Position numbers and translations under genes: made by a program. Shown here piece after piece: positions 19,964 through 36,696 of a stretch of 64,000 nucleotides of DNA (positions within the stretch are counted from its first letter, which is position 1; each line of letters begins with the position of its first letter). Below the pieces are notes generated by a model. It searched no databases, was not told where the DNA came from, and saw only the letters and a list, made by a program, of their open reading frames with translations. The DNA is from an uncultured Candidatus Saccharibacteria bacterium. Its GTDB lineage: Bacteria > Patescibacteriota > Saccharimonadia > Saccharimonadales > CAYOYH01. Location: positions 19,421 to 83,420 of the forward strand of contig CAZOFP010000001.1 of assembly GCA_964579475.1 (NCBI GenBank), read 5' to 3'.

Positions 19964-20181
19964 ATGAATCTCCTTGTTGTTGATATGTTAATTTACACCC
20001 CGGGAATTAAAAAACTCTCCGGCTGTCATGCATCGAAAGAGTTTAAACAATTGAATTGTTTACTCGCCTCGGTGACTTCTTATCTCCAGCGTGCGCCAGA
20101 CGTCACTGTCTTCGGTGATGATCGAGAAAAGTTTAACGTATTCGCCTACTACTGTCAAGCAGGTGAATTATATATTTTTAT

Positions 20182-20210
20182 TTGACATCAAACCTACAGG
20201 ATAGTATCTT
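20182..20210 (+). promoter_or_regulatory. Candidate sigma70-type promoter (TTGACA - 17 nt - TATCTT) pointing into the GC-rich islet
   Basis: Consensus -35 with 17-nt spacer. The -10 is TATCTT, weaker than TATAAT; no test done. Confidence 0.35.
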
Positions 20211-20534
20211 TTTATTCGTGAGCAACATCTATTCAATCATTATTACCAAGCTAGCAGACCACTTTGTGGTACGTATGCTGGTGGGTGCGTAATATTCGAT
20301 TGAAGCTGTAACACAAATAACCCACGAGCCATCGGACTTCAATCGAAAAAGGTCCGATTTTTGTTTTAGAAGGAGTTTGTTAGTCCTAAGGAATCCAAAA
20401 CTGCTGGAAACCAAATGGACGAACAAACTGTTCGACCAAGTGTGACACCCGTCACAAATTAACAAGGAGAGGATAAGTAAGCCGACAAGGCTGAGTACGA
20501 ATTGAATATACGCTCTGATACACCGGAGGATGGT

Positions 20535-20912
20535 ATGACCACTGCAACGACACGAGACCGTGTCCTGGTTGGGGATGAATATCGCATCGTCTCTTGCGCA
20601 GACCGTGATCGACGTACTGCGTTGACTCTTTTGCCACAGGCGAAGCAACTGATTCTCAACAACGTGGAGTTCAAGAGCACGGGAAGGGGTCCGAATCGCT
20701 GCACAAGCTGGGGTGAGTATCTGTACAAGCTCGCCAGCAATGTTCATCGTGGACGCGGCAAATTTCGTTCCAACCCACGGAACCAACCACTTGCTGGCTT
20801 TGAGCTCAGTGAACAGGAGTTGAAAGACTTGGTTCTTGAGCTGGAATTTGTTATAGGCAACCGAGAGCATGCGCACAGAGTCGTTTGTCAAATGCTGATC
20901 AACGGATTCTGA
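20535..20912 (+). CDS. Hypothetical 125-aa protein encoded in a GC-rich islet between the rplJ and tmk-thyX regions
   Basis: ATG preceded by GGAGGA (4-nt spacing). Balanced composition, unlike the S/T/C-rich antisense ORF. No family recognised. Confidence 0.35.
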   Translation: MTTATTRDRVLVGDEYRIVSCADRDRRTALTLLPQAKQLILNNVEFKSTGRGPNRCTSWGEYLYKLASNVHRGRGKFRSNPRNQPLAGFELSEQELKDLVLELEFVIGNREHAHRVVCQMLINGF

Positions 20913-21187
20913 ACCCATCGGGTAAGTCCTGGAGGCAGTGACCACCCTTATCACTTCCGTGGTGGTAGTTTCGACTAATAAATCGTTATTGCCACCCCAG
21001 GCCCCGTCCATTCAAAGAGCCGAAGGGGCATACTGAGCCATCATACTCAGCGGGAACGTAACACGGCACATCCACCGTCACTTGCGCAACCACCCCTTCG
21101 GCTACCTAGGCATAGTACAAATATTTGATCGCTAACGCGATTGAAACTAACTAGCTAATCCTCTCCTTCAAAACGAAATTATCAAAT

Positions 21188-23560
21188 CTATTTCTTTTTC
21201 TTCGGAGTAGCCTGCTTTGAAATTTTCTCTAGTTGTTTGAGTTTGAACTGAGTATAGCGCTCCGCTGCCAAACGAGTCAGTTTTGGGTCCTCATCTTTGT
21301 TAACAAATTTCATCGATTCGGCAATCAGTGGGTGATGTTCGGCTAGGGTGTCGTGCATTTGCTTAACGAGTCTTCGATACCCTGGATGGCCCTGCGGTGT
21401 GGTGCGGAGTTCATGAAAATGAAATGCCTGTCGGGCGTTGTAGGTGACTTTCCAGCGCATTCGGTGACCCATGAGCGTGGCATACTGGGCTTCTTCCTCG
21501 TATCCAGCTGCCTGCATTTGGCTGTAGAGCTTGTAGCTCATATCGAAACATTTCTCGAAAAGCTCACTAAGACCAGCTTCTTCGACCAGTTCTGGAATTT
21601 CATAGCCGTACCTCGGTGTCAGCAATTGCCAGTTTAAATCGTCTACCATTCTATGGCGTTGTAGGTCGCGAAAAATTCCATAATCACACATTAAATCCCA
21701 GCTGTAGCGAGCTTGCTCCAGAGCGCGGCCAGGCTTATGCCTTCTGTTCAGCCGTTCACCAACGTAGGCTTTAAAGGCGGCCAACCTGTCTTCATAACTC
21801 CACTCGGCAACTTCGCGTTCAATTTCCCTGAGCGACAGGCTGGAATGCTCGTAAAGCATATTCGGCAGCAAATCCATTTCATTTTTAGGCCAAACTTCGT
21901 TGAGCATTACTGGGTTTGCCTCAGGACTCATGTTTGGCGACAGCTTTTCGTCGGCAATCTTTTTTACTGCCGCTTTGGTGTTGGCGCTATAGGCAATAGT
22001 CGCTCCGCCTCTGTCTGGCTTGTCGGCGCGTTCTAAAAATACAGGCACGACCTTTCTGGCCTCCTCTAGTAGTTTGTCGCCAGTTTCTCTAGCTTCTTGC
22101 ATGGTTTCGCCTTGGAGGTGCATGATTAAACTCTCTAGTGCCTGCCCCGAGGCATAGATACCGACTGTCGACTTAGTAGACACCGGCAACACTGGTCGAA
22201 TCGCATCGCAGGCTTGGGCACGGGTGGCTCCTTTCCAGGCGAAATCACGCTCTTTCTTTGGCACGTTTGAGTTTTTTCGGACGTAGTCGGTCAGTTCATG
22301 AACCATCTCTGAATACGTATCAAAAATCTTGTCCATTGTTTGCTCATAACTACGAGCGATTTTTGCATTAAGATTTTTCGGTGTGAAATATTTGTAGTTG
22401 CCCTTTTCATCTTTCTGATCGAAATATATATAGCGAGTTGATTGCTCAAGGTATGCCGCCAGTCTGCCCCACTCCAGCTTTTTAGTCAGCCAGTTTGATG
22501 CACCTTCGATGACAAAATGTATACCCGACAGCTGCTGTACGGAATCATCGCCGTAAGCTGTGATGACTCTTTTTAACAATCCTTCGTCCTTGCCAGCTTT
22601 ACCGGCAAACTCATCCAGAAGAGTCACCCGCATGTCGTCGCCACGCCTGCTGAGCCGTGCCATGGCAGCAGCAACAGTCACGTTAGACATCTTGTCAGTA
22701 AACACATAAACATTATCTTCTGTGTTGGTGACGGCATCGCTTAGGTACTCCCTACCCTCGTCAGTGATACTGAACGAGCCATTCTGGTTCTTCTTGATTA
22801 GTGGCGCATCGGTTGAAGGCTCGGCGTCTTCTTGTGCTTCGTTTTTCGAAAGTTTTTTCTCGCGGAGTATCTCTTTAAGGGATGCCGCCTGACTTTGTGA
22901 AGTTGATTCGTTAACTACCCTAGGTCTACTGTGCTGGCTCTTTAGAGCGTTGGAAACATGACTCCAGATGTCATCTGCTAGTGCCTCGACAGTTTTAGTG
23001 CCGTCAACTATTGGCAGTCCTCGGAGTTTAGCTTCCTTGAGTAGTCCATTTCGCTCTCTTTCCAAAAAATCTCTGGGGAGATTGTCGAATTTTTCGCCTT
23101 GGCCTCTGTTTTTGAGTCTCTTAAGTGATTCGTCGACTGGTATATCAATGATTACAATTAAGTCTGGCTCCATGTCGGCAACGGTAAACTTGATGATCTG
23201 ATTTATAGCCTCATAATCATCGATGTCCCCTCTACCATAGTATTGAACTGCAAGTGTCGTCAGGTAACTATGGTCAACTATGCAGCTTACACCACGGTTA
23301 GTCATGTTTTTAACAATATCGAGTGTTTGGGATCGGGCAGCGTTGTACAGAAGCACTTCGGTCTTAGTATTCATTGGATACCGTGGACTCTGGGTCATTG
23401 CACGAACCGTACGTGCAGTAAGATCGGTCTGACTGTCGGGCTCGCGCATCATCCGCACTGGAAGTCCGGCAGCCTGGAAGCGACGATTAAGTTCAACTAT
23501 TTGGGTAGATTTTCCTGTACCCTGCACACCTTGGATGACGACATAAAGGCCTTTATTCAT
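21188..23560 (-). CDS. Fusion protein: thymidylate kinase (N-terminus) + tandem-duplicated flavin-dependent thymidylate synthase ThyX-like domains
   Basis: N-terminus has Tmk P-loop (VIQGVQGTGKST), the REPDS block and a lid region. The C-terminal ~500 aa contain two ThyX-like repeats; the second carries the RHR motif (FRDLQRHRM...TPRY) and the first has it replaced (EWGRLAAYLEQSTRY). Start taken at the Met just before the P-loop (track ORF starts at 23602). Confidence 0.8.
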   Translation of the reverse strand: MNKGLYVVIQGVQGTGKSTQIVELNRRFQAAGLPVRMMREPDSQTDLTARTVRAMTQSPRYPMNTKTEVLLYNAARSQTLDIVKNMTNRGVSCIVDHSYLTTLAVQYYGRGDIDDYEAINQIIKFTVADMEPDLIVIIDIPVDESLKRLKNRGQGEKFDNLPRDFLERERNGLLKEAKLRGLPIVDGTKTVEALADDIWSHVSNALKSQHSRPRVVNESTSQSQAASLKEILREKKLSKNEAQEDAEPSTDAPLIKKNQNGSFSITDEGREYLSDAVTNTEDNVYVFTDKMSNVTVAAAMARLSRRGDDMRVTLLDEFAGKAGKDEGLLKRVITAYGDDSVQQLSGIHFVIEGASNWLTKKLEWGRLAAYLEQSTRYIYFDQKDEKGNYKYFTPKNLNAKIARSYEQTMDKIFDTYSEMVHELTDYVRKNSNVPKKERDFAWKGATRAQACDAIRPVLPVSTKSTVGIYASGQALESLIMHLQGETMQEARETGDKLLEEARKVVPVFLERADKPDRGGATIAYSANTKAAVKKIADEKLSPNMSPEANPVMLNEVWPKNEMDLLPNMLYEHSSLSLREIEREVAEWSYEDRLAAFKAYVGERLNRRHKPGRALEQARYSWDLMCDYGIFRDLQRHRMVDDLNWQLLTPRYGYEIPELVEEAGLSELFEKCFDMSYKLYSQMQAAGYEEEAQYATLMGHRMRWKVTYNARQAFHFHELRTTPQGHPGYRRLVKQMHDTLAEHHPLIAESMKFVNKDEDPKLTRLAAERYTQFKLKQLEKISKQATPKKKK

Positions 23561-24266
23561 CTTCAAGCTCTGGTATTGGTTTGGGCATCTCTCGACTGTC
23601 AAGATAAGATTTTGGCAGCATCTGATCGGGCGTCCAAGTCCTGATTATCGTATCTAGGTCAGTACCGCTCTGATATTTACCACTCATACCACCGTGTCTT
23701 CCGAGACCATAGCTACCATCAACCTCGCCAGTTTCGTGAAAAATAAGCTGTCCAACGCGCTCACCAACAGGCAGAACTATGCTTTCTGTTTTATTAAGGT
23801 TGTATATTTCTAGAGTAATTCGGTTAATGTACCCTGGGTCAATGAAGCCGGCATCAAAAGCAATGGCTATGCCGTTTCTGCCCATACTCGAGCGTGAATG
23901 CACAATGGCACAACCAGGTGGCTTTATACCAATGAACTCATGAGTGTGCCCAAGAATTCTTTCTTGAGGCCTGAGGACAACAATTGGTTGGTTTTCAGGG
24001 ATGCCTTTAAAAAGCTTCGCACCGTTTAAATCAGCCCATTGCCTGTGTTCAAGCGCTTGATATGGGCCATCGAAATACCTTTCGACATCTTCTCTGTCGT
24101 AGGGGTTGTAGGTGGTTCGCTCGTTAAGCTTTTCTGTTTTGTAATACCATTTACCGAGTGTGAAATCTAGACTAGCCTGTCCAATGTGTTTGGGATTGTG
24201 CGGAGTGCAAACGATACTGCCGTTCGCAATAGCATCTTCAATCTGTACATTACTATAAACGGCCAT
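23553..24266 (-). CDS. dCTP deaminase / dUTPase-superfamily protein (Dcd-like)
   Basis: Dcd family blocks SSMGRNGIAIAFDAGFIDPGY...LEIYN and GQLIFHE. Start taken at MAVYSNVQ. Confidence 0.75.
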   Translation of the reverse strand: MAVYSNVQIEDAIANGSIVCTPHNPKHIGQASLDFTLGKWYYKTEKLNERTTYNPYDREDVERYFDGPYQALEHRQWADLNGAKLFKGIPENQPIVVLRPQERILGHTHEFIGIKPPGCAIVHSRSSMGRNGIAIAFDAGFIDPGYINRITLEIYNLNKTESIVLPVGERVGQLIFHETGEVDGSYGLGRHGGMSGKYQSGTDLDTIIRTWTPDQMLPKSYLDSREMPKPIPELEDE

Positions 24267-24335: not shown

Positions 24336-24893
24336 TTATTGTTCTTGGCTGGTCTGTATAATTTGGATGATTTTATGAAGTGGTTTTACGGGTACGTTTT
24401 GCATTGGAGGTTGTTGGGTAGAGTGTACTTCTAGGCGACTTTCGTACCATCTAGCAATATTCTCGTGGTGTGGTTTGATATAATTTCCAAATGATTCAGA
24501 TGTTACATGCGCTCTATATCGGGAAATTAGTCCAGCAATTGCTAAATAGGGGACTTCAGGAATTACCTCATCTTGTTCTGTCTCTGCCACTTTGATTGCC
24601 GCAGTGAGTTGTTCGAAATGAGTTTGTGTGATGTCATCTTGTATCACAGACCCCATTTCCAACAGAAGGCCAGTGTCTACAGGATAGGGCGAGTCGTTTT
24701 GAGGCGTTCTTGCAAGGTCGCCTAGAATACGTTTGGCGGCAAGCTTAGTAGGATTTAGCTCGTCACTTGACGGCTGAAGTCGTAAATATGTTCCAGCAAT
24801 GCTCTCCAAATCAGCTCGCACAACTAGACTATTGCTGCTTTTTGGTTCTTCCCTATCAAATTCCATCAGCGAGAGTTTACATGAAATCAACAA
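24336..24893 (-). CDS. Hypothetical protein
   Basis: ORF between the dcd-like gene and the dNMP kinase; the start may be the internal Met (MEFDREEP). Confidence 0.45.
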   Translation of the reverse strand: MLISCKLSLMEFDREEPKSSNSLVVRADLESIAGTYLRLQPSSDELNPTKLAAKRILGDLARTPQNDSPYPVDTGLLLEMGSVIQDDITQTHFEQLTAAIKVAETEQDEVIPEVPYLAIAGLISRYRAHVTSESFGNYIKPHHENIARWYESRLEVHSTQQPPMQNVPVKPLHKIIQIIQTSQEQ

Positions 24894-24911: not shown

Positions 24912-25685
24912 CTAAACTGCACCCTCAAAATCATCAGAATTATATTCTGGCAGTAAATCGTCTGCCAGAAGGTCCTCGTACACGGCGCGAGCCATCTCAC
25001 CCAGCGCTTCTCTGGAAGAAGTGCTTAATATAACTGTGTCCACCTTGAGCTTTGCCCAATGTGCTTCAGTGATGTCGCTAGAATCACGTGGTGGTAGGTC
25101 TTTGCGTACGAGTTTTGCTAATTTTCCGCCATTACGACGTATTACCTCGGCATCATATGGATATCTAATTCCACCAACAAGACAAAGGCTTTTGCCTTTG
25201 GTCTCTGCATCGAGAATTCTCCGTTCGATCTCATCGTACCAAACGCCTTCGCTCACCCTGACAATCAAAAAACCACCCAACCACTGTAAAATTGCGCGGT
25301 TTTTATCTTTGTTGCCATCGTTAATCTTAGAATTAATCTCGACAACACCTTGCTCAATGAGGCTGATATAGCGCACGAGCCTTGCTACCGTTTCCGGCGC
25401 CTCGTTGAAAGTTTCTTCGGTAATTAAAAGCTGCTCAGGATGTATTTTTACCTGAAGTATCTCGGAGGCGATAATCGAGAGTTCGGTAGTCCAAGCTTCT
25501 AAAATATCGTAGTCGTGATCATCAACCAAAAGTTCTTTAGGAAAATTTTTCAGCCATTTATTGGCTACTTCAGTAATTAAAGTTGAAGATTCTATCCGAA
25601 CAGCCGACTTGTCTATCGCCATGAAGGCTTTAGCAAGAGTAGATTTACCATGACCGATAGGTCCCGTAATGCCAAGAATTAACAT
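24912..25685 (-). CDS. Deoxynucleoside-monophosphate kinase-like protein (phage T4 gp1 dNMP-kinase family)
   Basis: P-loop GITGPIGHGKST plus blocks resembling T4 dNMP kinase (QWLGG.LIV, GGIRYPYDAEVIRRNGGKL.KLVR, SDITEA). Confidence 0.6.
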   Translation of the reverse strand: MLILGITGPIGHGKSTLAKAFMAIDKSAVRIESSTLITEVANKWLKNFPKELLVDDHDYDILEAWTTELSIIASEILQVKIHPEQLLITEETFNEAPETVARLVRYISLIEQGVVEINSKINDGNKDKNRAILQWLGGFLIVRVSEGVWYDEIERRILDAETKGKSLCLVGGIRYPYDAEVIRRNGGKLAKLVRKDLPPRDSSDITEAHWAKLKVDTVILSTSSREALGEMARAVYEDLLADDLLPEYNSDDFEGAV

Positions 25686-25719: not shown

Positions 25720-26733
25720 CTACTCTTTGTCAGCAAAAGCAGTGCTGATATCAATCCTAATAGATGGGCCCATGGTTGTCGTCAGGAATATTCTATCGAC
25801 AAATGCGCCCTTTACGCTTGCCGGCTTGGATTGTTTTATAGAATCAAGCAAAACGTTGGCGTTCTCCAGTAATTTGTCGGCGCCAAAGCTGACTTTGCCA
25901 GCTGCAGTGTGAATAATCCCTTGTTCGTCGACACGGTACTCTAGTTGCCCAGCTTTTAGCCGTTTTACGGCTTTTGCTACGTCTTTAGAGACGGTTCCAC
26001 TCTTTGGGTTCGGCATTAGACCTTTAGGTCCAAGTAGTCTAGCGAAGCGTCCAAGTTGAGCCATTAACTGCGGTGTTGAAACCAGTACATCAAAGTTAAG
26101 TTCTTCCTTTTTTAGAAGCTCCAGGAAATCTTCCTCGCCGACAATGTCAGCACCAGCAGCCTTGGCTTTATCCTGATCTTCGGAGTTGGCAAATACAGCA
26201 ACTCTTACCGTTTTGCCCGTGCCATTAGGTAGCACCACGACACCGCGAACGTTCTGGTCTGCCTGCTTCGGATCAACGTTTAGCTTCAAATGTAGTTCGA
26301 GTGAAGCATCAAAATTCACCTTCGAGGTCTTCACTGCCAGTTCGATGCCGTCTTTTAAATTGTACGACTTCTCGTCATCTACGAGTTTGGCCAGTTCCTG
26401 ATATCGTTTCGAACGCCGCTCGATTAGCGGTCGCGTTACAGGTGTCGGCCCGCGTTTCTCAGCAGCAGTTGGCGTATCGGTGTCTTGTTCTTTAGCTATA
26501 CGCTCTTGACGCTTATCTTCCTCTTCATCGTCACTAATGGCCTTCGCACTGCGTTTTCCAGCCTTTGCGGTTGCGCTCTTTTCTTCAACTGGTTTTGCTT
26601 CGTGCACTTTGTCGTGTTTTGTCGGGTTAGATTTTTCGATAGCTGCTTTTATGTCAGCTATTTTGTCTTTTGGGGTCACCTTTAGCCCTAAATCTTGAGC
26701 CTCTTTCAACCAATCTTGTTTCGTCTTTGCCAT
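25720..26733 (-). CDS. rplA: 50S ribosomal protein L1 with ~105-aa lysine/glutamate-rich N-terminal extension
   Basis: C-terminal 230 aa align with bacterial L1 (QNVRGVVVLPNGTGK..., GPKGLMPNPK.GTV). The N-terminal extension lies in the same ORF with SD AAAGGA upstream of its ATG. Confidence 0.9.
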   Translation of the reverse strand: MAKTKQDWLKEAQDLGLKVTPKDKIADIKAAIEKSNPTKHDKVHEAKPVEEKSATAKAGKRSAKAISDDEEEDKRQERIAKEQDTDTPTAAEKRGPTPVTRPLIERRSKRYQELAKLVDDEKSYNLKDGIELAVKTSKVNFDASLELHLKLNVDPKQADQNVRGVVVLPNGTGKTVRVAVFANSEDQDKAKAAGADIVGEEDFLELLKKEELNFDVLVSTPQLMAQLGRFARLLGPKGLMPNPKSGTVSKDVAKAVKRLKAGQLEYRVDEQGIIHTAAGKVSFGADKLLENANVLLDSIKQSKPASVKGAFVDRIFLTTTMGPSIRIDISTAFADKE

Positions 26734-33990: not shown

Positions 33991-34033
33991 ACGCACTTCA
34001 TGATTTTCATATAAGCAAAATTGAGAACTAAAA

Positions 34034-34597
34034 TTATACTGTTTCAGTCACGAATTTATGAAAACTCTTAAAGGAGTTGGATTTATCTAAGGCCTTTTCA
34101 ATATTCAAATATTTCGCAAAGTCTTCATTATTCTTAGTCATAAAGTACTTTTCTTTTTGTGAACACTTGAACACTTGATCTTTAATTTTTCCTTTAGGGT
34201 CTTGGATGGTCTCTGGTAATCCAGAAAATTTAGGCATAAATTTTAGATTTAGAGACTTCTTGATACAGCCTGGATCACTGATAAACCAAGCCTCCAGTTC
34301 TTCAACTGGGATACAAATGTATCTGTTACCAAGCCTACTAGACGATAGAATACTCTCTAGCTCTGCCCTGACTCTGTCTTCACCGTTTGTCCCATCAAGG
34401 TCCTGCACAAGTATTAAAGCGCTGCAGCCTTGTGAGTGTAGAACATCAGCCCACATTAAACATTTCCGTTTGATATTGCCTTTTCCGTTTTTAGCGAACT
34501 CCCTGAAGCCTATACCGTTTTTATCAGATATTCTACGCACTAGAACTTCGATTGTGCTTGTGTCAGTCCTGTCTTCACCTATCAACCCAATGCGCAT
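34034..34597 (-). CDS. DUF4276/RloB-type Toprim-like small protein (partner of the adjacent ABC ATPase)
   Basis: N-terminal Toprim-like G-E-D (IGLIGEDRTD) and DxD (LVQDLDG), C-terminal EELEAW. Its ATG follows the upstream ATPase stop codon directly (no intergenic gap). Confidence 0.6.
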   Translation of the reverse strand: MRIGLIGEDRTDTSTIEVLVRRISDKNGIGFREFAKNGKGNIKRKCLMWADVLHSQGCSALILVQDLDGTNGEDRVRAELESILSSSRLGNRYICIPVEELEAWFISDPGCIKKSLNLKFMPKFSGLPETIQDPKGKIKDQVFKCSQKEKYFMTKNNEDFAKYLNIEKALDKSNSFKSFHKFVTETV

Positions 34598-34600
34598 TAC

Positions 34601-35809
34601 TTATTCGCTCCTAAAACCAGTTTCTCTCCAATAATCACCAAGGCTGCCTGTGTTCAAAAGGTATTCACGCAACGCGTTATGATCATTAGAATTTAGTTTC
34701 TTTTTCAATGAACTTGCACTAGTACCATTTGAGCCTTTACCAACTAACACAATTTGCTCGGGCTCAAGTTTATCTACTACATTATCGGAATGAGTGCTTA
34801 TTATCATTTGTTTTGTCTCTGCTTTCGATTCCACAAGCTCCATAACGCTGTTGATTAAACCGTGATGTACACCTATTTCGGGCTCTTCGATTAACAATAA
34901 TTCGTTGTTATTTCGAACTATATAGTAAACCAGTGCTAAAGTTTTTAAAGTTCCTTCAGAAAGCTGTGAAGGTGATAACTGTAGACCATCAATAGTAAAA
35001 GTGGGTATGACAATGTTGCGATCTATATCGATTTTTTCTATTCCGCCTCCTGGCTTCACCCTAATATTGCTATTGGGGACTGTGACATTTTGAAAATTAA
35101 TGTCTTCAATAAGCCCTATCCCTAGTGGGCCTACGGCGTTAATAAAAAGCTGGAACGACTTATCGTCACTCCTGCTCGAGTTATATATATCAAAAAGAAA
35201 TTTTCGATGTATGTTGGATTCTCCGTAACTTCTTGGAAGTTCACCATCTTCGATTTCTATTGATATTGGGCTGTCTGCAGGATTGGAGAAATGGGTTGCA
35301 CTGTAGTACCTAATACCAAAGAGGAATTCATTAAGCTTCGCTAAGAACTGGTTGATATCTTTTGAAGGAGTAAAGTACCTTTTCTTTAGACTTTCGGGGA
35401 TACTGTCATTCCCGAATTGTTGGATTACACTAAATGCTTGACTGCTGATCTCATGCCTCTTTTCATTAGTGCCCCCCATTTTCTTTACATGTAATTCTGA
35501 TACATCGATATCGTCCTGGTCGTATTGGTCAAAAAATATTTCTAGGAATAACCTATACGTATTGTCACCATCAGAAACGTCAGCTTCGATAAGTGATGAT
35601 GACAATGACTTAACTCCAGACCTCGGTGGACGTGCACGTCTATACCCTAGGCTGTAAATGCCTTTTTTGAGCAAGCCTATAGCAGCTAAAATATTAGTCT
35701 TTCCAGCACCGTTCCTCCCAATGAGAACTGTCGGATTTGTGCTAATTGCAAGTTTTGTGTCAATAAGAGATCTGTAGTTCTCGATTCTAATTTGAGTAAG
35801 CTTTAACAT
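34601..35809 (-). CDS. ABC-type/SMC-like ATPase of the AAA_21/OLD-AbiL-PARIS class
   Basis: Walker A GRNGAGKTN near the N-terminus; distal Walker B LLLIEEPE and H-loop (HH/STHS). Confidence 0.75.
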   Translation of the reverse strand: MLKLTQIRIENYRSLIDTKLAISTNPTVLIGRNGAGKTNILAAIGLLKKGIYSLGYRRARPPRSGVKSLSSSLIEADVSDGDNTYRLFLEIFFDQYDQDDIDVSELHVKKMGGTNEKRHEISSQAFSVIQQFGNDSIPESLKKRYFTPSKDINQFLAKLNEFLFGIRYYSATHFSNPADSPISIEIEDGELPRSYGESNIHRKFLFDIYNSSRSDDKSFQLFINAVGPLGIGLIEDINFQNVTVPNSNIRVKPGGGIEKIDIDRNIVIPTFTIDGLQLSPSQLSEGTLKTLALVYYIVRNNNELLLIEEPEIGVHHGLINSVMELVESKAETKQMIISTHSDNVVDKLEPEQIVLVGKGSNGTSASSLKKKLNSNDHNALREYLLNTGSLGDYWRETGFRSE

Positions 35810-36444
35810 ATGTATTCCTCTCTAATGCCTTAATGGTAACCTACGAAGATGCTTGACTCCAAACAGCAAGTTCATGGGATTTTCGAATTTGGAGCAAGAT
35901 AAAAACAAAGTTTTTGATGAAGAGAAGCCTTAACGTTAGTGCTTGTTGCATTCAATAAGTAGTGTATGATGCAATTAGCTTGAATTGTGAATGCACAATT
36001 CGTGTACTTATTAAGAGCTCCGCGCACCCAATGAGGTCCATTCGGATCAACAGATCGCTATAACAAGAGAGCCAGGCATTATAAATGAGCTAAACCATTT
36101 ATAGTGTCTTTTTTATTTCTATCTCTAGAAGTTAGGGGACCTATACAGGTTATCTACTAACTTAATGAGGTAGTTCGTAATGCTTGGAACTATTTGGGAT
36201 CTGGGATTATGTCGAAACCCGCGCCCTTTACGCCTCACTTTGATTCAAAATTGTTTCGCGGCCAGTCCAGAGAGAACTGATTTCATTGCTGGCGAGGCAA
36301 GGCATGTTTATGCGCAAGTGGCTGTGTATGTGATACTGCTACTGAGCATGAATATGTCTTAACGAAGTTAGAAATGAAAAAGCTTACGCAGGTGTCGCAA
36401 ACTTTGTTTGTGAGCAGTACGTAAGCTGTTCAGACTCTCTGGCA

Positions 36445-36619: not shown

Positions 36620-36696
36620 TGGCAGGGGTGGAGGGACTTGAACCCGCGACCTTCGGTTTTGGAGACCGACGCTCTAGCCAGCTGAGCTACACCCCT
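36620..36696 (-). tRNA. trnW: tRNA-Trp (anticodon CCA), CCA encoded
   Basis: Cloverleaf by hand-folding: acceptor AGGGGTG/CACCCCT, D-arm GCTC...GAGC, anticodon stem TCGGT/ACCGA with loop CTCCAAA, T-loop TTCAAGT. One C-U mismatch in the T-stem. Confidence 0.8.

What the first reader, a model, noticed from the sequence alone, without database searches (positions are those of the whole stretch)
21188..23560. Single ~790-aa polypeptide fusing thymidylate kinase to a tandem-duplicated ThyX, with the first ThyX copy lacking the RHR motif
The N-terminal ~210 aa form a clear Tmk (P-loop, REPDS block, lid region). The C-terminal ~500 aa contain two ThyX-like repeats. In repeat 1 the RHR motif is replaced (EWGRLAAYLEQSTRY); repeat 2 keeps RHR (QRHRM...TPRY) but with atypical spacing to the usual Ser. 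ThyX is normally a ~220-aa homotetramer, so a covalent pseudo-dimer fused to the next pathway enzyme (dUMP to dTMP to dTDP) is unusual. It may represent substrate channelling, or a ThyX-derived enzyme with altered chemistry such as hydroxymethylation, as in phage thymidylate-synthase homologs.
Basis: partly seen in the sequence, partly recalled or inferred. Interest (0 to 1): 0.6.

Follow-up and report, generated by a model that had tools for sequence, protein, structure and literature searches.

The report
Thymidylate kinase fused to double-domain ThyX
This is a real, conserved Saccharibacteria gene that joins a thymidylate kinase to a double-length flavin-dependent thymidylate synthase whose two halves appear to build one shared active site; it is an interesting variant of known enzymes, not a new kind of system.

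Summary
Window 21188-23560 (- strand) encodes one 790-aa protein: a Tmk domain (aa 1-205), a disordered linker, and two ThyX (Pfam Thy1) folds. It is not an assembly artefact: thousands of full-length homologues exist in Saccharibacteria, always after a dCTP-deaminase gene with a conserved 8-nt overlap.

"Unusual" is overstated. Double-length ThyX is a large family annotated as thymidylate synthase. It occurs stand-alone in Acidimicrobiia (e.g. Acidimicrobium ferrooxidans) and in phages.

The motif oddities have a simple explanation. Half 1 keeps exactly the residues that one canonical ThyX subunit gives to a dUMP site (E86, S88, R90, Y91, R147 equivalents). Half 2 keeps exactly those of the partner subunit (R74, RHR, NAR, R174). 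So one complete site per chain is inferred, not a changed chemistry.

The kinase part is less settled:
- Related genomes fuse at least three Tmk sequence types to near-orthologous ThyX.
- Many relatives also carry a second kinase nearby.
- The window's clade has E10Q, E13Q and R97H at catalytic positions, yet the domain is under strong purifying selection.

Verdict: dCTP to dUMP to dTMP to dTDP module; a new variant of a known kind; moderate interest.

The parts
21188..23560 (-). Whole tmk::thyX2 gene (790 codons plus stop at 21188-21190)
22946..23560 (-). Tmk domain, aa 1-205. P-loop GVQGTGKST aa 11-19 (23504-23530); REPDSQ aa 39-44; VDHSY aa 95-99 (23264-23278), where the family consensus is VDRNY; lid KRLKNRGQGEKFD aa 147-159.
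22769..22945 (-). Variable linker, aa 206-264. Predicted disordered (pLDDT about 30 for aa 210-250) and fast-evolving (pN 0.37 against 0.06-0.09 in the domains).
21953..22768 (-). ThyX half 1, aa 265-536. Keeps the equivalents of T. maritima R80, E86, S88, R90, Y91 (WGR...EQSTRY, aa 364-377) and R147 (R455). Has lost R78/H79 (W364, G365) and N163/R165 (S471, Q473). H481 sits at the R174 position.
21191..21952 (-). ThyX half 2, aa 537-790. Keeps the equivalents of R74 (R631), RHR (R635 H636 R637), NAR (N708, R710), R174 (R719) and E58 (E615). Has lost E86 (L646), S88 (T648, after a 3-aa insertion) and R147 (Y693).
23553..24266 (-). Upstream dCTP-deaminase-family gene (237 aa from the internal ATG). 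Its stop overlaps the tmk::thyX2 start by 8 nt (ATGAATAA). It scores higher against dUMP-forming bifunctional enzymes than against E. coli Dcd.
   Evidence: the same 8-nt overlap
24912..25685 (-). 257-aa P-loop kinase (weak Pfam DNMK match). It occupies the slot after rplA that holds a stand-alone Tmk in other Saccharibacteria. Possible second (d)NMP kinase of the module.

Best explanation
The gene encodes a bifunctional thymidylate-synthesis protein of a Saccharibacteria (CPR/Patescibacteria) chromosome.

Shown:
- One conserved ORF joins a Tmk-family P-loop kinase domain, through a disordered variable linker, to a member of the widespread double-domain ('long') ThyX family.
- The gene is translationally coupled (8-nt overlap) to an upstream dCTP-deaminase-family gene.
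- This module sits inside the rplKA-rplJL ribosomal cluster.

Inferred:
1. The two ThyX halves are a sub-functionalised tandem duplicate. In canonical homotetrameric ThyX, each dUMP site is built by R74, Q75, R78 and R174 of one subunit plus E86, S88, G89, R90 and R147 of a neighbouring subunit. Here half 2 keeps the first set plus the FAD-binding RHR and NAR residues. Half 1 keeps the second set plus Y91. The reciprocal positions are degenerate.
2. So each chain should form one complete FAD/dUMP site. A dimer of chains would mimic the ThyX tetramer with two working sites instead of four.
3. The chemistry should be ordinary flavin-dependent reductive methylation of dUMP to dTMP.
4. Pathway: dCTP to dUMP (Dcd family, probably dUMP-forming), dUMP to dTMP (ThyX2), dTMP to dTDP (Tmk domain). 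This would let a cell without de novo nucleotide synthesis make thymidine nucleotides from scavenged deoxycytidine nucleotides.
5. Fusion gives fixed 1:1 expression and proximity, not a demonstrated tunnel.

Open point: in the window's own clade the Tmk domain has Q10, Q13 and H97 where the family has E, E and R. Its kinase activity is therefore uncertain, even though the domain is clearly under selection.
For: Domain identities.
Conservation of the fusion.
Synteny and the 8-nt overlap with dcd in the window and in six relatives' contigs.
Residue mapping: by hhalign to T. maritima ThyX (sequence verified against PDB 1kq4).
Subunit assignment of dUMP-binding residues: PolB/ThyX paper PMC5003785, agreeing with PBCV-1 ThyX (PMC3498832) and M. 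tuberculosis ThyX (PMC6514825).
Complementary conservation in 266 long-ThyX sequences: half 1 has R80 244, E86 247, S88 239, R90 235, R147 243 of 266, but W at R78 and Q at R165. Half 2 has R74 242, R78 241, H79 243, N163 243, R165 249, R174 231, but Y at R147 in 259.
Long form used as the annotated thymidylate synthase in cultured Acidimicrobium ferrooxidans and in phages.
Dcd scores higher against dUMP-forming enzymes (M. tuberculosis 43.9 bits, M. jannaschii 40.3 bits) than against E. coli Dcd (22.9-25.7 bits).
Saccharimonadia lack de novo nucleotide synthesis: PMC12592800.
Tmk domain under purifying selection: pN 0.090 against 0.37 in the linker.
Against: - No biochemical data exist for any member of this fused family.
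- TIGR02170 (thyX equivalog) scores 68 bits, below its cut-off of 87.9.
- No solved ThyX chain is found by sequence, even with a family profile. Half 1 aligns to T. maritima ThyX only weakly by hhalign (E 7e-4).
- The one-site-per-chain model rests on alignment plus literature subunit assignments. I could not measure distances in the model or predict the dimer.
- Half 1 keeps an Arg at the R174 position in 63% of long ThyX, so the 'dead' site may keep some ligand binding.
- The window's Tmk domain has H97 at the Arg of the DRx motif and Q13 at the P-loop acidic residue.
- Relatives encode a separate Tmk that passes the TIGR00041 cut-off (103 bits) or a DNMK-like kinase next to the module. The fused domain need not be the working dTMP kinase.
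- No folate-supplying gene (glyA, folD) turned up: 20 large window ORFs were scanned with Pfam, about 30 other ORFs of >=120 aa were not scanned, and the rest of the genome was not available.
Confidence: 0.75

Rival explanations
1. The ThyX part works as described, but in this clade the fused Tmk-like domain is no longer the cell's dTMP kinase. It would be a nucleotide-binding, regulatory or scaffold domain. dTMP phosphorylation would be done by the neighbouring 257-aa DNMK-like kinase (or, in other Saccharibacteria, by the stand-alone Tmk).
For: - E10Q, E13Q, R97H and N98S co-vary perfectly in 13 sequences. R97 is the DRx arginine, aligned to Aquifex Tmk R90, which is mutated in PDB 5xb5.
- All four genomes of this clade that I examined have the DNMK-like kinase after rplA.
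- Other genomes have a stand-alone Tmk that passes the TIGR00041 cut-off at that position.
- In L028 the fused domain's P-loop is degenerate (GIEGQTKD) and a canonical tmk lies just upstream, yet the domain is retained.
Against: - The domain still passes the TIGR00041 cut-off.
- It keeps K17, S18, R39-E40-P41, R76, D96 and the lid residues R148, R152 and D159.
- It evolves as slowly as the ThyX halves.
- Q and H are conservative, hydrogen-bonding replacements that might keep activity.
- The DNMK-like kinase also occurs in genomes whose fused domain has E/E/R.
Confidence: 0.3
2. The ThyX-like region has changed chemistry or substrate, e.g. hydroxymethylation, or methylation of UMP or dCMP.
For: - The RHR-X7-S motif is not intact in either half.
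- The score is below the TIGR02170 cut-off.
- A ThyX homologue with a different natural substrate exists: PolB, a UMP methylase (PMC5003785). It appears among the fold hits.
Against: - All uracil- and phosphate-contacting residues and the proposed catalytic S88, R90, Y91 and R174 equivalents are conserved once per chain.
- The same long form is the annotated ThyX of free-living Acidimicrobiia.
- The gene is sandwiched between a dCTP deaminase and a dTMP-kinase domain.
- From my own knowledge, not tested here: phage hydroxymethylases are ThyA homologues, not ThyX homologues.
Confidence: 0.05
3. Both ThyX halves are independently active, so a dimer has four working sites like a normal tetramer.
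For: - Both halves pass Pfam Thy1.
- Half 1 often has Arg at the R174 position and half 2 often has Arg at the R90 position.
Against: The reciprocal site would lack R78, H79, N163 and R165 (FAD binding) as well as E86, S88 and R147. These losses are fixed across 266 sequences: Y at R147 in 97% and Q at R165 in 84%.
Confidence: 0.05
4. An assembly error or frameshift joined separate tmk and thyX genes.
For: One Saccharibacteria genome (L035) has tmk and thyX2 as separate adjacent ORFs.
Against: - The open frame is uninterrupted here.
- Full-length homologues occur in thousands of independent assemblies from NCBI, JGI, ENA and Logan.
- The linker is translated and variable, but always in frame.
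Confidence: 0.01

Closest known systems
Canonical flavin-dependent thymidylate synthase ThyX (T. maritima TM0449, PDB 1o26; about 220 aa, homotetramer)
   Same: Same fold for each half. Same set of dUMP/FAD residues when the two halves are taken together. Same predicted reaction.
   Different: Two folds lie in one chain. Neither half carries the complete RHR-X7-S motif. The residues are partitioned between the halves, so two sites per four domains are inferred rather than four. Sequence is too diverged to hit any solved ThyX with phmmer or a family profile.
Stand-alone double-domain ('long') ThyX, about 520-560 aa: Acidimicrobium ferrooxidans WP_015798353.1, many Acidimicrobiia, Microcystis phage LMM01 thymidylate synthase, Tunturiibacter phage Tunturi_5. 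From memory only: Chlamydia trachomatis ThyX, about 529 aa.
   Same: About 35-55% identity over both halves, with the same invariant residues and the same complementary degeneration.
   Different: These proteins lack the N-terminal Tmk domain and linker. I could not confirm with these tools that the biochemically studied Chlamydia enzyme belongs to this long form.
Bacterial thymidylate kinase, E. coli type (PDB 4tmk; Aquifex 2pbr; P. aeruginosa 3uxm)
   Same: Fold TM-score 0.85-0.89. Has the P-loop, the REP and AAR motifs and the lid arginines. Passes the TIGR00041 cut-off.
   Different: It is fused to ThyX. It has an unusual REPDSQTDLTAR...YPMNT insert region. In the window's clade Q10/Q13 replace E/E and H97 replaces the DRx Arg.
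Bifunctional DHFR-TS of protozoa and plants (established knowledge, not tested here)
   Same: Consecutive enzymes of thymidylate metabolism are joined in one chain. That is the classic precedent for proximity or channelling arguments.
   Different: The enzymes are unrelated (ThyA and DHFR). DHFR-TS has a defined inter-domain architecture, whereas here the linker is predicted disordered.
PolB, ThyX-family UMP/dUMP C5-methylase of polyoxin biosynthesis (PDB 4p5b)
   Same: ThyX fold hit (rank 45). Same substrate-contact residue set. I used it for the subunit assignment.
   Different: PolB is a single-domain homotetramer encoded in an antibiotic gene cluster. Nothing in the window's gene context suggests secondary metabolism.

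Membership tests
ThyX / FDTS (Pfam PF02511 Thy1) | ThyX fold and Pfam Thy1 match above the gathering score | tested here: met
   Whole protein 130.2 bits. Half 1 scores 71.2 bits and half 2 scores 67.0 bits, against a cut-off of 24.8. Foldseek top hits are all ThyX.
ThyX / FDTS | Contiguous ThyX motif RHR-X7-S(-x-R-Y) within one domain | tested here: not met
   Half 1 has WGR-X7-S-T-R-Y. Half 2 has RHR-X10-T-P-R-Y. The motif is present only as a composite of the two halves.
ThyX / FDTS | Full set of dUMP-contact residues (R74, Q75, R78, R174 from one subunit; E86, S88, R90, R147 from the neighbour) | tested here: met
   Met once per chain. Half 2: R631, R635, R719 (D632 sits at the Q75 position). 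Half 1: E372, S374, R376, R455. Each is conserved in 87-93% of 266 sequences.
ThyX / FDTS | FAD-binding residues (H79/RHR, N163, R165, E58) | tested here: met
   Met in half 2 only: H636, N708, R710, E615. Lost in half 1: G365, S471, Q473.
ThyX / FDTS | NCBIfam TIGR02170 thyX equivalog trusted cut-off | tested here: not met
   68 bits against a cut-off of 87.9.
ThyX / FDTS | Homotetramer with four active sites; FAD-, NADPH- and CH2-THF-dependent dTMP formation | not testable with these tools
   No multimer prediction or model coordinates were available, and there is no biochemistry. A dimer of pseudo-dimers with two sites is inferred.
Double-domain (long) ThyX family | Two Thy1 domains in one chain, sharing the invariant residues GDDS, R..EQSTRY and R(PV)LP in half 1, and NRRHKPGR.E, FRDLQRHR, NAR and ELR..P.GH in half 2 | tested here: met
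   All of these residues are invariant or nearly invariant in A2/A3 and in the window protein. Identity to stand-alone members is 32-55%.
dTMP kinase (Tmk; PF02223, TIGR00041) | Family HMMs above cut-off, and the Tmk fold | tested here: met
   PF02223 83.2 bits. TIGR00041 96.1 bits against 83.25. Fold TM-score 0.85-0.90.
dTMP kinase (Tmk) | P-loop GxxGxGK(S/T) and lid arginines | tested here: met
   GVQGTGKST at aa 11-19. R148 and R152 are conserved in 119 and 114 of 120 sequences.
dTMP kinase (Tmk) | Arg of the DR(Y/H/F) motif and the acidic P-loop residue (E. coli R100 and E12) | tested here: not met
   The window has H97 and Q13. 107 of 120 homologues have R, and 105 of 120 have E.
dTMP kinase (Tmk) | ATP-dependent phosphorylation of dTMP | not testable with these tools
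   Requires an enzyme assay or genetic complementation.

The most novel reading that the evidence does not exclude
The fusion is not simple pathway stitching. Saccharibacteria have repeatedly attached (or swapped) different Tmk lineages onto the same asymmetric ThyX, and they keep the domain even when its catalytic residues change (Q/Q/H here; a degenerate P-loop in L028) and another kinase sits nearby. On this reading the Tmk-like domain has a second role. It could sense thymidine nucleotides and regulate ThyX allosterically, or it could be required for assembly. The half-degenerate ThyX pseudo-site would then be a regulatory nucleotide pocket.
Probability: 0.15. Interest if true: 0.6.

Novelty: new variant of a known kind. 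Interest (0 to 1): 0.4.

Why it matters
- It gives Saccharibacteria, which cannot make nucleotides de novo, a compact three-activity route from deoxycytidine nucleotides to dTDP. Current annotation hides this, because the gene is usually named only 'dTMP kinase'.
- The long ThyX is a natural asymmetric ThyX in which the two roles of a subunit are separated into different domains: the flavin/'unprimed' side and the substrate-loop/'primed' side. That makes subunit-specific mutagenesis of the ThyX mechanism straightforward.
- No solved structure matched the ThyX part by sequence, and none of the listed top fold hits covers more than one half.
- ThyX is a drug target that humans lack, so a divergent form in human-associated Saccharibacteria and, if my recollection holds, in Chlamydia is of practical interest.
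- The clade-specific changes in the Tmk domain, together with the alternating second kinase, form a small natural experiment on how fused domains lose or change function.

Tried and rejected
- BLASTP of half 1 against half 2 found no similarity. The duplication is visible only through profiles and the predicted structure.
- PDB sequence searches with the protein, its C-terminal part and the family profile found only Tmk chains.
- Foldseek with the full-length model listed only Tmk in its top 50, so I re-modelled the C-terminal part alone.
- All ten literature searches found no paper on a Tmk-ThyX fusion, on double-domain ThyX, or on ThyX in Saccharibacteria. The Leduc 2004 and Griffin 2005 papers are not held. 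Chlamydia ThyX being a long form therefore remains my recollection only.
- dN/dS could not be computed because synonymous sites are saturated between the window and L004. I used pN alone.
- phmmer searches of the 64-kb window's six-frame ORFs for a second Tmk, a ThyA or a short ThyX found nothing. The ThyA query was an E. coli sequence recalled from memory and not verified. Pfam scans of 20 large ORFs showed no folate-pathway gene; about 30 other ORFs of >=120 aa were not scanned. The rest of the genome could not be scanned.
- Artefact and altered-chemistry readings were considered and rejected; see the rival explanations.
Full report
**1. Observation**

The - strand ORF 21188..23602 has an ATG at 23560. 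That start gives a 790-aa product, and it matches the N-termini of homologues (consensus MNRGKYIVIEG).

- Pfam finds Thymidylate_kin at aa 9-198 and Thy1 in two stretches.
- Scanned separately, aa 265-536 scores 71.2 bits and aa 537-790 scores 67.0 bits on Thy1, against a cut-off of 24.8.
- NCBIfam TIGR00041 (dTMP kinase) is passed, 96.1 against 83.25. TIGR02170 (thyX) is not, 68 against 87.9.
- The quoted motifs are at aa 363-377 and aa 634-651.

AlphaFold2 modelling supports the domain plan.
- The full-length model has a confident Tmk domain, a disordered stretch at aa 210-250, and pTM 0.60. Its fold hits are solved Tmk structures.
- The C-terminal 539 aa, modelled with a diverse alignment, reach pLDDT 89.9 and pTM 0.87 and show the same secondary-structure order twice.
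- That model's PDB fold hits are all ThyX, each covering about 225 columns, i.e. one half.
- In the viral structure library it aligns over both halves to a 491-aa thymidylate synthase of Microcystis phage LMM01.

**2. Not an artefact, and not rare**

The word-indexed search returned 6354 hits. The best 120 are all full-length (98-100% coverage, 63-100% identity). They come from NCBI, JGI, ENA and Logan assemblies and are named 'dTMP kinase' or 'putative thymidylate synthase' of Candidatus Saccharimonadales or Patescibacteria.

An exhaustive search of 50%-identity representatives with the ThyX part alone found 3426 clusters, 700 of them at E<=1e-30. They fall into two groups:
- proteins of about 720-800 aa whose extra ~260 N-terminal residues are Thymidylate_kin even at 34-47% identity;
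- many stand-alone proteins of about 520-560 aa.

The stand-alone form is annotated as FAD-dependent thymidylate synthase in Acidimicrobiia, Actinomycetota, Methylomirabilota and Binatia. Cultured examples are Acidimicrobium ferrooxidans DSM 10331 (WP_015798353.1, 532 aa) and Ferrithrix thermotolerans. It also occurs on large viral contigs and in Tunturiibacter phage Tunturi_5.

I recall that the biochemically studied Chlamydia trachomatis ThyX is also about 529 aa, but I could not verify this here. PMC3498832 only confirms that the enzyme is active.

**3. What the odd motifs mean**

I verified my copy of the T. maritima ThyX sequence against PDB 1kq4. I then aligned profiles of each half to it. 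Half 2 aligns with 94.7% probability over 182 columns. Half 1 aligns weakly, but in register on the motifs.

| T. maritima residue | Half 1 | Half 2 |
|---|---|---|
| R74 Q75 | K360 K361 | R631 D632 |
| R78 H79 R80 | W364 G365 R366 | R635 H636 R637 |
| E86 | E372 | L646 |
| S88 | S374 | T648 (after a 3-residue insertion) |
| R90 | R376 | R650 |
| Y91 | Y377 | Y651 |
| R147 | R455 | Y693 |
| N163 / R165 | S471 / Q473 | N708 / R710 |
| R174 | H481 | R719 |

The PolB/ThyX structural paper states which subunit supplies which residue. The dUMP phosphate is held by F79, R82 and H83 of one monomer and by S96', A97', R98' and R166' of the neighbour. O3' is held by E94' and R86, and O2 by R193 (PMC5003785). 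In T. maritima numbering this means:
- one subunit gives R74, Q75, R78 and R174;
- the other subunit gives E86, S88, G89, R90 and R147.

The PBCV-1 and M. tuberculosis descriptions agree.

So half 1 retains exactly the second set and half 2 exactly the first set, plus the flavin-binding RHR and NAR residues. This is a property of the whole long-ThyX family, not of this one protein. Counts in 266 sequences:

| Position (T. maritima) | Half 1 | Half 2 |
|---|---|---|
| R74 | K 228 | R 242 |
| R78 | W 170 | R 241 |
| H79 | G 176 | H 243 |
| R80 | R 244 | R 236 |
| E86 | E 247 | variable |
| S88 | S 239 | T 147 / S 75 |
| R90 | R 235 | R 124 |
| Y91 | Y 233 | H 139 / Y 51 / L 49 |
| R147 | R 243 | Y 259 |
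| N163 | T 115 / S 93 / N 45 | N 243 |
| R165 | Q 223 | R 249 |
| R174 | R 167 | R 231 |

The simplest reading is sub-functionalisation after tandem duplication. One composite site per chain is kept and the reciprocal site is lost. A dimer of chains would then replace the tetramer. This step is inferred, because I had no access to model coordinates or to multimer prediction.

It also argues against altered chemistry. The residues proposed to activate dUMP and assist methylene transfer (R174, S88, R90, Y91; PMC8316439) are all present.

**4. Gene context**

The start codon overlaps the stop of the upstream dCTP-deaminase-family gene by 8 nt (ATGAATAA). The same 8-nt overlap is called in six relatives' contigs.

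The Dcd homologue scores higher against dUMP-forming bifunctional enzymes than against monofunctional E. coli Dcd:
- M. tuberculosis enzyme: 43.9 bits
- M. jannaschii enzyme: 40.3 bits
- E. coli Dcd: 22.9-25.7 bits

This weakly suggests direct dUMP supply.

The module sits between rplK-rplA and rplJ-rplL, and this placement is conserved across Saccharibacteria. Saccharimonadia are reported to lack de novo nucleotide synthesis (PMC12592800). A dCTP to dUMP to dTMP to dTDP conversion module therefore makes physiological sense.

**5. The kinase half is the less settled part**

*A second kinase nearby.*
- In the flanks of 11 relatives (6-10 kb fetched upstream of the gene) there is a separate Tmk. 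Gene calls for three of them place it directly after rplA. In L001 it scores 103 bits on TIGR00041 and is only 23% identical to the fused domain.
- Nine loci, including the window, have a 250-260-aa DNMK-like P-loop kinase upstream instead. Where flanking genes were called (window, L133) it lies directly after rplA.
- Within the window I found no second Tmk, no ThyA and no short ThyX.

*Several Tmk types are fused.*
- The fused domain comes in at least three sequence types. All are Pfam Thymidylate_kin, and all are attached to ThyX parts about 65-70% identical to each other.
- One genome has tmk and thyX2 as separate adjacent genes (L035).
- Another (L028) has a degenerate P-loop in the fused domain plus an extra canonical tmk immediately upstream.
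- This points to repeated fusion or domain replacement. It also shows the domain being retained even where its catalysis looks dispensable.

*The window's own clade.*
- This clade makes up 13 of the 120 top hits. E10Q, E13Q, R97H and N98S co-vary perfectly.
- R97 is the Arg of the DRx motif. It aligns to Aquifex Tmk R90, the residue mutated in PDB 5xb5. Q13 is the counterpart of E. coli Glu12; this correspondence rests on established knowledge of Tmk, not on a test here.
- Yet the domain evolves as slowly as the ThyX halves: pN 0.090 against 0.06-0.08, compared with 0.37 in the linker.
- All four genomes of this clade that I examined carry the DNMK-like kinase.
- I therefore give only about even odds that the window's Tmk domain is a normal dTMP kinase.

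**6. Comparison and novelty**

Each part belongs to a known family: Tmk, and long-form ThyX. The whole works like a fused pair of consecutive pathway enzymes, as DHFR-TS does.

It fails two formal membership features:
- neither ThyX half has a contiguous ThyX motif;
- the window's Tmk domain lacks the DRx arginine.

The domain architecture is already visible in public databases through automated Pfam assignments. However, none of the ten full-text searches found any description of the fusion, of the double-domain form, or of its complementary degeneration.

I rate it a new variant of a known kind, with interest 0.4. It is solid and tidy, and useful for ThyX enzymology and for correcting annotation, but it is not a surprise in kind.

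Noticed in passing
window 24912-25685 (-); L001:4895-5482, L005:6782-7408: The slot directly after rplA holds a 257-aa DNMK-like P-loop kinase in the window. It has no PDB or NCBIfam match. Across the surveyed relatives' flanks, 11 loci carry a stand-alone Tmk (TIGR00041 103 bits in L001) and 9 carry the DNMK-like kinase, never both; gene calls confirm the post-rplA position for three of the former and for L133. The two kinases look like alternative occupants of one position in the thymidylate module.
   Followed up: partly
window 23264-23278 and 23504-23530 (-): There is a clade-specific, perfectly co-varying change in the fused Tmk domain: E10Q, E13Q, R97H and N98S (VIQGVQG...VDHSY against VIEGPEG...VDRNY). 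It occurs in 13 of the 120 closest homologues, and the domain remains under strong purifying selection.
   Followed up: partly
L006-L039 (Saccharibacteria loci), especially L028:4571-7584 and L035:4130-7605: At least three Tmk sequence types are fused to near-orthologous ThyX2. L035 has dcd, tmk and thyX2 as separate genes. L028 has a degenerate P-loop (GIEGQTKD) in the fused domain plus an extra canonical tmk between dcd and the fusion.
   Followed up: partly
window 19965-21187: A 1.2-kb stretch between rplJ and the gene's stop has no convincing gene. There is a sub-threshold Rfam L10_leader match at 20000-20133 (-) (34.4 bits against a gathering score of 44). Positions 19965-20475 are 77% identical to L004 with no consistent reading frame. 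Positions 20476-21187 are not conserved, and the 260-aa ORF at 20229-21011 has no family match.
   Followed up: partly
window 24336-24893 (-): A 185-aa ORF lies between the DNMK-like kinase and dcd, with no Pfam or NCBIfam match. The closest relative, L004, has only a 102-aa ORF at this position.
   Followed up: no
window 25720-26733 (-); L133:4403-5431: Ribosomal protein L1 is 337 aa, with a lysine-rich N-terminal extension of about 100 aa. In relative L133 the equivalent 342-aa protein also hits RNA_pol_A_CTD and HHH_5, suggesting a helix-hairpin-helix module fused to L1.
   Followed up: no
window 34001-36000: This is the lowest G+C stretch of the window (0.38 against 0.42-0.47 elsewhere). 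It coincides with a 402-aa AAA_21/AAA_15 (AbiEii-like) ATPase at 34601-35809 (-), next to tRNA-Trp at 36620-36696. It may be a small defence or mobile insert.
   Followed up: no
L086-L132 (IMG/VR contigs); PP885688.1 46546-47979: Double-domain ThyX genes occur on many large viral contigs (60-530 kb) and in the jumbo phage Tunturi_5. They are 23-39% identical to the window's ThyX part, and none looks like a Saccharibacteria-type Tmk fusion.
   Followed up: partly
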